Origin: a virus
Strand: one strand, 5' to 3'
Virus record (IMG/VR): IMGVR_UViG_3300027850_000002
Coordinates: 1-64,000 of that record
Length of the DNA: 64,000 nucleotides
The notes under the pieces are model-generated. The model was not told the DNA's origin, did not search any database, and worked only from the letters and a program-made list of their open reading frames with translations. A program made the translations under genes and the position numbers. Positions 6,466-9,281 of the stretch are shown here, in pieces (position 1 is the stretch's first letter; each line of letters begins with the position of its first letter).

Positions 6466-6500
6466 CGAAAAAAGAAGGCGCCGCATTCCTGCGACGCCTC
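6466..6500 (-). terminator. Intrinsic terminator closing the repeat array
   Basis: Minus strand GAGGCGTCGCA-GGAA-TGCGGCGCCTT (11-bp stem incl. G-U, GNRA loop) followed by CTTTTTT. Confidence 0.85.
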
Positions 6501-7681
6501 CAGTATAGCCCCTCCAGTGATCACTAGACCAATCCGCTCACAGCGTTTCCAATGCAGCATATCCAGTCATTCGCATGCACGTCCTCACCTCCGTCGTCCG
6601 TTCTATCACCGCGTTTCCAGTCATCCCCGCCACCATGCATGACCATTCCTTTGGCGTTACCGCCATTGTTTCCCGTTTAACACCCATCCAATCACCCCAA
6701 ACCCATTGCAGCCATTCCGGTGCGGTGTGCTCCCATCAGAGCCAAGCCTTCACGGCCCGTTCCGGTGCAGCCATACCATTGCTCTCCGAAGCATTGAATG
6801 CCCCGAGTTTCCCCTGCAGCTGTCCCCCTGTATCGTAGCCCTAACATCACCCGTGCACGCCTATGCGGCCCTACATCTCCAGTGCTTTCCTTCGACGCCT
6901 ACCGTAGGCCGCTCCGCTCCAATGCCGCCGTTCCTTTATCTTGCGGACCACTCGACGCCTCACGCTTCCTATGCAGCCATTCCTAACCGCCTACTTTCCC
7001 CACGCCTCCGTGCCCCACCTGTGACCTCGCCGCCTCTGCAGCTTCTCCACTCGTCACAGTGCCAACCATCACCCGACATTTCCTTTGCAGCCTTTCCGAT
7101 GTGCTCCACGCGAGACAAGTCCTACGTTGTCCACTGCCGCCGGTCCGTTGCCGCCCCGCCCTCTCCACGCGCATCGCACCTAGTCCATAGTACGCTTCGC
7201 GCACCCGCCCCAATGCTGCCTTTCCATCCCTCAACTTTCACTACCTATCAGGTCATTTCCGGTGCTGCCGTTCCAATGCGTCCACTTCATATCCCATGAC
7301 GTCCTGTCGCAATGCGGCAAGTCCGCCCGGCACCACTGCTCGCTCTTCCTCACGCAACCTATACAGCCTATCCACTCCACGCAGTTGACGTCGCACCCTT
7401 ACACCTCATCCACGCTCCACTGCCGCCCTCGCAATCGCGCCCTTCGACTCCTTACATCCACAATCCGATGCAGCATCTCCATTAAGATCCAACACGGTCC
7501 TGACCCATCAGGTCCGGTCGCCTCCCCTGCCGCCACTCACTCAAAAAACAACCCGCAAATCGAATCCATTGCTCTCCGATGCGATCGTTTCCTCACCCTT
7601 CAGAACCAACCCCACGCCGCCTATCCAATGACGTCCGGTGAAGATCGAACCAGCCTAGACGTTCCCTCTGCAGCCACTCAC
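6501..7681 (-). ncRNA. Array of 21 pentamer-periodic units (NN-GGH)n punctuated by a TGCA/GGCA-like tetramer; putative VIPR-like guide RNA array
   Basis: Plus-strand tgcNgc(c)-like motifs at 6504,6553,6607,6658,6707,6766,6815,6864,6923,6972,7037,7086,7135,7214,7263,7313,7362,7421,7469,7528,7615,7669; 16 of 21 spacings equal 5n+4; internal (t/g/a)cc-NN period; no credible ORF. Confidence 0.8.
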
Positions 7682-7727: not shown

Positions 7728-8258
7728 CTACTTCTTCTTCGTCTTGGCCTTCTTCACCGAAGCCTTGACCGCACGCATCGCAGCCATGATGCCAGGCATC
7801 GCAGCCTTGGCCCACCCGTACTTCGCGTGCCGCGCCTTCCACGCCTCGAGCTGCGCGAGCGCCTGCTCGATGACCTGGTCGGCCAGGTCCGGCGTGTCGA
7901 ACACGAACGTTGCGGCCTCGTAGCTGCGATGGTTTTCCGAGTCCCGTACGTTGAAGTACATTTTCATCGGGACCTTCTTGCCCTTGGCGTCCTCGAGCAC
8001 CACCTCGATGGAACGGAGCAGAGCACGCGCCTGCGTCAGCCGAAACTGATGGGCTGCTTTGTGATCGTCCCATTCGAAGTAGCGGTACATCGGCGAGCCG
8101 GTTTTGCTCGCCTCATTGAGCACACGCTCTGCCGTCAACAGTCCGGTCTTCTTGAGCTGCTCGAAGATCTGGCCGAGCACCGGAGCATCCGATTCGCGTA
8201 CCCGAGAGCCGGGCGCGACGCGAAAGGTCATCTTCACGCCTGGTTTTCCTGCCGTCAT
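7728..8258 (-). CDS. Conserved phage protein, accessory partner of the RAMP-like gene
   Basis: LTAERVL..A....SP....FEWDD..AA..FRL.QAR.L.R signature; sits between the RAMP gene and the array. Confidence 0.75.
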   Translation of the reverse strand: MTAGKPGVKMTFRVAPGSRVRESDAPVLGQIFEQLKKTGLLTAERVLNEASKTGSPMYRYFEWDDHKAAHQFRLTQARALLRSIEVVLEDAKGKKVPMKMYFNVRDSENHRSYEAATFVFDTPDLADQVIEQALAQLEAWKARHAKYGWAKAAMPGIMAAMRAVKASVKKAKTKKK

Positions 8259-8279: not shown

Positions 8280-9281
8280 TCACAACCCGAAGTTCTTGCG
8301 CATCTTTGCGATCTGCTCGGGCGTCGCGTTCGCGACCAGGTCTTTGAAGCTCCCGTCCAACTTCTCCAACTTCGGGCGACCCGGCGGACGACCGGGCGGA
8401 CGCTTCAGCACCTTGTTGGCCACGGTCACACCGTTGCTCTCGCTCTTCTTGGGGCGCCCCGGCTTGCGCTTCATCGGCGGCGCATCATCGAGAGCCGAAG
8501 CCTCGACCACCTTCTTCGGGCGACCCAGCTTCTTCTTCGGCGCATCCACGACCTCGATGCCATCCTTCGCAGCCTTGGCCCGACCACGTGCCACCTTGGC
8601 GTCGTCCTTGGCGGCCTGCGCTGCCATCGTTTCCTTTGCAGCGATCTGAGCAGCTGCGCGGGCCTGCTCGATGATCTTCTTGCTGGCACCTGCCGGGAAC
8701 ACGTCGAACCGACCGTAGTCACCGCCCTTCTGCGGGCGCCACTCACCGACGCCGTTCTTGGCACCGGCATGCGCGAGCAGCGTGACCACCTGGTGCGGTG
8801 TCAGGACGGAGGCGTCGAAGCCGATGCGGAGCTTGCAGCTCCAGCCCGGGAACTCGGGGCGATAGGCCAACGAGGTCTTCGCCATGCCGCCTTGACCGAC
8901 ACGGACACGTGCCGTGTTCATGATCGGCTTCTTGCCCGTGAACTTGATCGGGATGAGGTCGCCGACCACGTAGACGCCCTGTTCGACGTTGCCACGTGGG
9001 ATCTGGAAGTAGCCGCCCATTGCGGCCATGCCCTTCTTGAACCAGATCGCCTTGACGCAATCCTCGCCCTTGGTGTTCTTGATGCGCGCGCGCTCGCACT
9101 CTTCCTCAGGCACGCGCGGTGCCTTGGTGCGCGAGGCGTTGCCGCCCTGCTTGCGTGCGATGTCGTCCTGCGTCTTCTCGTCGAAGCGCTTCACGAGCAG
9201 GCTGGTGCGGCCGACAATGTCGACCTCCAGTTCCGTGGTCTGAATGTCAGGGACGATGATTCCGAGAGTGTTCTTTGCCAT
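8280..9281 (-). CDS. Cas7/RAMP-like (Vipr-like) RNA-binding protein with AT-hook C-terminal tail
   Basis: N-terminal beta strand then GRTSLL; AYRPEFPGWSCKLRI; C-terminal Gly-rich loop AGAKNGVGEWRPQKGGDYGRF; tail KKLGRPKK, KRKPGRPKK, RPPGRPPGRPK. Confidence 0.75.
   Translation of the reverse strand: MAKNTLGIIVPDIQTTELEVDIVGRTSLLVKRFDEKTQDDIARKQGGNASRTKAPRVPEEECERARIKNTKGEDCVKAIWFKKGMAAMGGYFQIPRGNVEQGVYVVGDLIPIKFTGKKPIMNTARVRVGQGGMAKTSLAYRPEFPGWSCKLRIGFDASVLTPHQVVTLLAHAGAKNGVGEWRPQKGGDYGRFDVFPAGASKKIIEQARAAAQIAAKETMAAQAAKDDAKVARGRAKAAKDGIEVVDAPKKKLGRPKKVVEASALDDAPPMKRKPGRPKKSESNGVTVANKVLKRPPGRPPGRPKLEKLDGSFKDLVANATPEQIAKMRKNFGL

What the first reader, a model, noticed from the sequence alone, without database searches (positions are those of the whole stretch)
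6501..7681. Hidden grammar of the array: 21 units of length 5n+4 with unique dinucleotide payloads
Successive spacings of the punctuation motif (plus strand tgcagcc/tgccgcc/tgctgcc and variants) are 49,54,51,49,59,49,49,59,49,65,49,49,79,49,50,49,59,48,59,87,54. Sixteen of 21 equal 4+5n and nine are exactly 49. Units parse into pentamers, e.g. 7214 tgct|gcctt|tccat|ccctc|aactt|tcact|accta|tcagg|tcatt|tccgg and 6923 tgcc|gccgt|tcctt|tatct|tgcgg|accac|tcgac|gcctc|acgct|tccta. The 65-nt unit regains phase after a 1-nt insertion. Positions 4-5 vary freely, while positions 1-3 are biased to tcc/gcc/acc (RNA GGA/GGC/GGU) but degenerate. No two units are identical, so CRISPR and tandem-repeat finders would probably miss it. 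The GGA-rich, degenerate triplets look like a divergent dialect of a GGY/NN code.
Basis: seen in the sequence. Interest (0 to 1): 0.9.

Follow-up and report, generated by a model that had tools for sequence, protein, structure and literature searches.

The report
Phage VIPR array targeting defence-type genes
This 175-kb freshwater phage carries a recently described RNA-guided gene-silencing system (VIPR) with about 21 back-to-back guides, and the guides that could be decoded spell conserved motifs of bacterial restriction and other defence-type genes, which suggests (no functional test yet) that the phage switches off many host immune systems at once.

Summary
Period-5 and period-49 signals are real (z 4.5, 6.8; strongest in the genome) and the spacings are as listed. 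The array is the guide part of a VIPR system, read on the minus strand behind a Vipr gene (hits SUSP1 Vipr, PDB 36pp; Cas7-like fold) and a partner gene. The 5n+4 lengths fit the published 'staggered' arrays. The fixed triplet is mostly NGA/NGN, not GGY. Nine related phages carry arrays of the same grammar; they keep the dinucleotides while the triplets drift. With a one-base skip the guides read as codon prefixes. Three window guides match whole gene families in frame: a C5 methyltransferase catalytic motif (44 exact hits; the one locus annotated is Eco29kI-type restriction-modification), a ParB-like gene in a SNF2/radical-SAM/DGQHR operon (22/22), and a Ppl/TrlF-like ATPase (26 of 29 hits). 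Relatives' guides hit the same operon's SNF2 gene, HsdR and JAB-E1 proteins. Published VIPR targets are rival viruses. This scan noted one anti-CBASS guide on other DNA (unchecked here). Host, expression and silencing are unshown; most guides remain unassigned; one relative's guide fits a phage polymerase.

The parts
8280..9281 (-). vipr: 333 aa; about 200-aa RAMP/Cas7-like domain plus a Lys-rich low-complexity tail
   Evidence: phmmer hit to SUSP1 Vipr 36pp, E=3.3e-6; model pLDDT 82, Foldseek hits are Csm3/Cmr4/Cas7 chains; phrog_4652
7728..8258 (-). vap candidate: 176 aa, helical, function unknown
   Evidence: follows vipr in the related loci L125, L127-L133; homologues follow vipr homologues in mycobacteriophages; no fold match
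6506..7671 (-). staggered vrRNA array, about 21 units: GCA-NN-(NGN-NN)n-GGC-N, mostly 9-11 dinucleotides each
7472..7530 (-). guide for the C5 methyltransferase motif IV (GGPPCQPFS), sense strand
   Evidence: 44 exact in-frame IMG/VR hits; MTase beside an Eco29kI-type nuclease in L146; family found in 9 of 10 arrays' clusters
7365..7423 (-). guide for a ParB-like gene (VAEGNCRTVVY) in a ParB/SNF2/HATPase/radical-SAM/DGQHR operon
   Evidence: 22/22 in L179 and nine GTDB loci, 21/22 in one
6661..6709 (-). guide for the H-loop (IFVTHNPNI) of a Ppl/TrlF-like ABC ATPase, opposite strand
   Evidence: 26 of 29 IMG/VR hits in frame in this family; also two Acidobacteriota genomes
6975..7039 (-). 65-nt guide, probable target a GHKL-type ATPase lid motif (GGHGNGGK) in an integrase-flanked DNA-modification island; weaker
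   Evidence: one hit in 151 genomes, 21/24; relatives' versions 19/20 and 17/18
7138..7216 (-). 79-nt unit that reads like a ThiF/E1 motif; target not found
   Evidence: resemblance only; no match
6474..6501 (-). intrinsic terminator closing the array
   Evidence: 12-pair stem plus T run; folding z=-3.8
7541..7552 (-). conserved T-rich element inside the array, role unknown
   Evidence: present near the 5' end of 8 of 10 arrays

Best explanation
A phage VIPR system. vipr, vap and the array are transcribed on the minus strand up to the terminator (inferred). The array is cut at the RGC-N|GCA junctions into guides of about 50 nt (inferred; enzyme unknown). Vipr protomers coat each guide, one per pentamer, hide the triplet and present the dinucleotides, which pair with double-stranded DNA while every third base is skipped (shown for SUSP1; supported here by sequence). 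The skipped base falls on the codon wobble position, so each guide in effect recognises a 9-11-residue protein motif whatever the synonymous codons. In this clade most decodable guides point at the most conserved motifs of restriction-modification and other defence-island genes, so the likely job is multiplexed transcriptional silencing of host anti-phage systems, with a minority of guides against rival phages (inferred).
For: Vipr homology and fold; RNA-contact residues R138, D177, W178, R179 of SUSP1 align to R141, E180, W181, R182 (10.64898/2026.04.26.720927). Ten arrays, 302 units: 275 pairs share 6 or more dinucleotides against 2-5 in shuffles, and where the dinucleotide is identical the triplet is identical only 29% of the time. 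Family-level in-frame hits for three window guides. A separate guide family in relatives matches the SNF2 gene 2.3 kb from the ParB site in the same operon, 18/18, which was not selected for. At the ParB site identity by codon position is 1.0/0.99/0.59 and the site is the best conserved of 329 windows (one seed peptide overlaps it). HsdR guides in six relatives, confirmed on a type I REase. E1 motif 20/20 in 7 JAB-E1 proteins. No self-targets above shuffles; the phage has no C5 methylase.
Against: Host unknown; no single genome matched by many guides. About 17 of 21 window guides have no assigned target, and several searches were empty. Only the restriction systems are proven defence; the ParB operon and the ATPase-kinase-regulator operon are unnamed, and the ATPase is below the Ppl and TrlF cut-offs. 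The MTase and ATPase hits come largely from viral/proviral contigs. One relative's guide fits a phage DNA polymerase A (16/18, single hit). The E1 test overall is weak (8 vs 3.4). No shuffled-pattern scan of IMG/VR was run. No RNA or binding data.
Confidence: 0.62

Rival explanations
1. Same VIPR machine, but aimed at rival mobile elements (prophages, satellites, ICEs) as in published clades; the 'defence' genes are cargo that marks those elements, or methylases that protect a rival's DNA.
For: All published phage VIPR targets are viral or satellite genes or REP decoys. The 44 MTase and 26 ATPase hits are from IMG/VR; L256 is integrase-flanked; one relative's guide family fits phage Pol A.
Against: No integrase, repressor or structural gene was convincingly hit in 1.7 Mb of largely viral loci. 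The ParB operon, HsdR and ATPase targets also sit on long cellular contigs. Defence cargo of a prophage acts against an incoming phage anyway, so the two readings overlap.
Confidence: 0.25
2. A VIPR-derived system in which Vap adds another activity (cutting, modifying or occluding the target, or processing the array) so that the outcome is not plain transcriptional silencing.
For: Vap has no fold match and no SUSP1-like phage hit; targets lie mid-gene on either strand; the array has no tail or ribozyme, so processing is unexplained.
Against: No nuclease family hit in Pfam, PHROGs or NCBIfam; mid-gene targets on both strands are normal for silencing VIPRs. The Vap model is poor (pLDDT 63).
Confidence: 0.1
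3. A decayed array or a decoy (sponge) without present targeting function.
For: Only about half of the triplets are GGN; GGY to GGA abolished silencing with SUSP1 Vipr (GGY substitutions tested in fig. S12B).
Against: Dinucleotides are conserved across ten arrays while triplets drift, and match conserved motifs exactly; vipr and vap are intact; the pyrimidine-pocket residue C173 is Asn in this clade, which may admit A (inference).
Confidence: 0.03

Closest known systems
VIPR systems with staggered vrRNA arrays (10.64898/2026.04.26.720920, fig. S18)
   Same: vipr + vap + pentamer array; guides abutting with a one-base stagger (5n+4); one-base skip on the wobble position; targets on both strands; no self-targets.
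   Different: Figures and type table are not readable here, so the type cannot be assigned. Triplet consensus NGA/NGN with 76% purine at position 3; 20-52 guides per complete array; targets are defence-type genes, which the text of the three VIPR preprints does not report for phage systems.
Type II VIPR of phage SUSP1 (PDB 36pp; 10.64898/2026.04.26.720927; 10.64898/2026.10.15.759431)
   Same: Homologous Vipr G-loop and thumb residues; guides sit on catalytic-motif codons and skip wobble bases.
   Different: Four roughly 100-nt guides with strict GGY and a pseudoknot tail, aimed at a satellite; here tail-less guides of about 50 nt, C173 replaced by Asn, a Lys-rich C-terminal tail, and a Vap without detected similarity to SUSP1-like phages.
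Non-canonical VIPR repeat clusters (10.64898/2026.10.21.760802)
   Same: Period-5 arrays beside Vipr-fold genes with other triplets (GAC, CAC, WGT, TGH).
   Different: No targets analysed there; the junction motif and GGA bias seen here are not named in the text.
Class 1 CRISPR backbone proteins (Csm3/Cmr4/Cas7)
   Same: RAMP fold.
   Different: No direct repeats, no contiguous spacers, no other cas gene found next to it.

Membership tests
VIPR | Vipr: single-RRM RAMP with G-loop and thumb | tested here: met
VIPR | Minimal locus: vipr plus one vap, non-coding array, no CRISPR repeats | tested here: met
   cas genes elsewhere in the genome not searched
VIPR | Pentamer repeats, fixed triplet alternating with variable NN, 9-16 per guide (GGY or a relaxed consensus such as NNNGG/NNNNG) | tested here: met
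   relaxed consensus only
VIPR | One-nucleotide skip rule, skip on the wobble position | tested here: met
   (computational)
VIPR | Targets on either strand, none in own genome | tested here: met
VIPR | Guides expressed, processed and bound by Vipr; transcriptional silencing | not testable with these tools
   no RNA holder listed
VIPR, staggered-array kind | Successive guides offset by a one-base overlap | tested here: met
   195 of 302 units are 5n+4 (partly parser-built), 16 of 21 in the window; real cut sites not testable
VIPR type II (SUSP1) | Strict GGY triplet | tested here: not met
   GGY 14-15%, GGA 28%
VIPR type II (SUSP1) | Invariant structured 3' tail on each guide | tested here: not met
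   units abut directly; unit folds no better than shuffles
Ppl (target of unit 6661-6709) | Reaches the Ppl or TrlF model cut-off | tested here: not met
   NF045780 307 vs 350 bits; NF042955 124 vs 1000; works like, not a member
Type II RM, Eco29kI-like (target of unit 7472-7530) | C5 MTase next to its endonuclease | tested here: met
   one locus checked, L146

The most novel reading that the evidence does not exclude
A clade of large phages uses long staggered VIPR arrays as a programmable, codon-aware anti-defence library: tens of guides, each matching a motif that a defence enzyme cannot change, silence many host immune systems together. The arrays would then also be a readable list of the systems that restrict these phages, including unnamed ones such as the ParB-SNF2-radical SAM-DGQHR operon and the ATPase-kinase-regulator operon.
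Probability: 0.55. Interest if true: 0.88.

Novelty: new variant of a known kind. Interest (0 to 1): 0.74.

Why it matters
Known anti-defence factors are mostly one protein per system. Here one small protein and about 50 nt per target could cover a whole immune repertoire, robust to synonymous change. It would extend VIPR from virus-versus-virus to virus-versus-host conflict, and the 300 guides from ten arrays offer a phage-selected shortlist of candidate defence systems that can be tested directly. A Vipr that tolerates GGA and needs no RNA tail also bears on how the code is read and on multiplexed gene repression tools.

Tried and rejected
Self-targets: none above shuffles for skips 0-3. Unit 6710-6768: two IMG/VR hits antisense in a gut-phage portal gene, 18 bases only, treated as chance; none in five genomes. 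E1-like pattern: 0 in GTDB (45), 0 of 251 Pseudomonadota, 0 of 5. JAB pattern: 0 in IMG/VR (71), 0 of 151 Alphaproteobacteria. First unit: 0. AIPR-like 12-base pattern: chance level. Rfam: nothing. No sigma-70 promoter. Vap fold search empty, model poor. No RNA holder listed. The plus-strand ORFs over the array and the 563-aa frame opposite vipr are taken as shadows. An either/or reading of one-base inserts was not supported: the first register fits better for the ParB, SNF2 and ATPase guides. Motif readings from memory without a hit (HerA, AIPR, E2, BREX-like P-loop, MORC) are leads only.

Full report
Observation. The periodicity is real: z=4.5 at lag 5 and 6.8 at lag 49 against shuffles, and the strongest period-5 signal in the 175,415-base genome. 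The genome is a linear virus record, 94% complete, seen in freshwater metagenomes; the stretch is identical in two assemblies that may include the source.

Locus. Upstream on the minus strand lie a 333-aa and a 176-aa gene, and a terminator closes the array at 6501-6474. The 333-aa protein hits SUSP1 Vipr in the PDB (E=3.3e-6) and its model matches Csm3/Cmr4/Cas7 chains. The SUSP1 residues that hold the two guanines are kept; C173 of the pyrimidine pocket is Asn throughout the clade. The second gene follows vipr in the relatives and in mycobacteriophages, so it is the vap; its function is unknown. This is a VIPR system (10.64898/2026.04.26.720920). The 5n+4 lengths fit the staggered arrays with one-base overlap described there.

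Grammar across relatives. Nine further arrays (L001, L125, L127-L133; Vipr 74-89% identical) parse the same way: 302 units, 195 of length 5n+4, 108 of 49, junction RGC-N then GCA (partly parser-built). Triplets are GGA 28%, GGY 14%, middle G 79%. Units cluster across phages by their dinucleotides (275 pairs against 2-5 shuffled) while triplets are identical in only 29% of matching positions (background 11%). Selection therefore acts on the dinucleotides.

Decoding. With a one-base skip each dinucleotide is a codon prefix. (a) Unit 7530 spells motif IV of C5 methylases; all 44 exact 21-base hits in IMG/VR are in frame in such methylases, and the locus annotated carries an Eco29kI-type nuclease next door. 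(b) Unit 7423 gave one IMG/VR hit, 22/22 in frame in a ParB-like gene. The operon (ParB-like genes, SNF2 helicase, HATPase, radical SAM, DGQHR; parts resemble ZorD/DpdE, DpdB, PDC-M38A) recurs on contigs of Alpha- and Betaproteobacteria and Acidobacteria. An unrelated guide family of the relatives matches the SNF2 Walker A 2.3 kb away, 18/18. On these loci skip 1 gave 87 hits (shuffled 1.3), skips 0, 2, 3 gave 1, 0, 0; the loci were chosen through the first guide, so the SNF2 match is the independent part. Identity by codon position is 1.0/0.99/0.59. (c) Unit 6709 matches the opposite strand: 26 of 29 hits are the H-loop of a 630-aa ABC ATPase related to Ppl/TrlF but below both cut-offs, in an operon with a histidine kinase and a response regulator; an extra dinucleotide in two relatives predicts the next residue correctly. 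(d) Unit 7039 probably matches a GHKL-type ATPase in a DNA-modification island (one hit, 21/24). Relatives add type I HsdR, JAB-E1 proteins of Bub/Bil type (20/20 in 7 proteins, weak overall; PMC11601596 for the family), CBASS-type JAB (15-16/18) and GmrSD_N (16/18). One family fits a phage DNA polymerase A (16/18). No guide hits its own genome above chance.

Mechanism. Shown here: locus anatomy, conservation pattern, skip rule, family-level targets. Taken from SUSP1: filament, triplex, silencing. Inferred: expression, cutting at the junctions, and that silencing these genes disarms host defence. The main rival is that the targets are cargo of competing elements; many hits are proviral, and silencing a type II methylase alone could harm the host unless the nuclease gene is silenced too (own knowledge). 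The host was not identified and about 17 window guides are unassigned.

Novelty. VIPR, staggered arrays, relaxed triplets and wobble-aligned catalytic targets are published. In the text of the three VIPR preprints and one mapping preprint I found no phage VIPR aimed at host defence genes (figures and data files not readable). I reached this reading; the scan's notes, seen, hold the same idea for one anti-CBASS guide in another phage (not checked here, not independent support). What this locus adds is a clade-wide, multi-system pattern. Verdict: new variant of a known kind; VIPR membership about 0.97, anti-defence as main role about 0.6; interest 0.74.

Noticed in passing
L001:7577, L127:6916, L128:6280, L131:8375, L132:7129, L128:5638: A two-base insert makes TC+AG exactly at a serine position in five HsdR guides and one methylase guide. 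Serine has both TCN and AGY codons, so this may be an either/or register; two independent families only, post hoc.
   Followed up: partly
window 7541-7552 (-) and seven relatives: A conserved T-rich element interrupts the pentamer phase near the 5' end of the arrays; possibly a leaky terminator or internal promoter.
   Followed up: partly
L127:7586 and L127:7635: Guides read like the phage Pol A motif; 16/18 to the polymerase in L202, so some guides probably aim at rival phages.
   Followed up: partly
L179, L183-L192: Unnamed operon ParB-like x3, SNF2, HATPase, radical SAM, DGQHR with patchy spread; candidate defence system (no paper held all terms).
   Followed up: partly
L194-L222: Recurrent three-gene operon: Ppl/TrlF-like ATPase, histidine kinase, response regulator; candidate defence system.
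   Followed up: partly
L027-L029: Distant vipr homologues lie about 1.5 kb from a C5 methylase gene that unit 7530 would match.
   Followed up: no
H18-H42 (mycobacteriophages), H13-H17 (Gordonia phages): vipr homologues in cultured actinophages, with a vap homologue next door in the mycobacteriophages; arrays not examined. They could be tractable models.
   Followed up: no
G000:C1:129081-130463 (-): The phage encodes a protein with a HerA-like Walker B motif; relatives' guides spell similar motifs but none matches it above chance.
   Followed up: no
window 8280-8640 (-): Vipr carries a Lys/Ala-rich tail of about 120 aa with several GRP motifs (AT-hook-like), variable in length among relatives.
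   Followed up: no
L128:7955-8906: A related phage carries an M20 peptidase (allantoate amidohydrolase-like) gene near the array.
   Followed up: no
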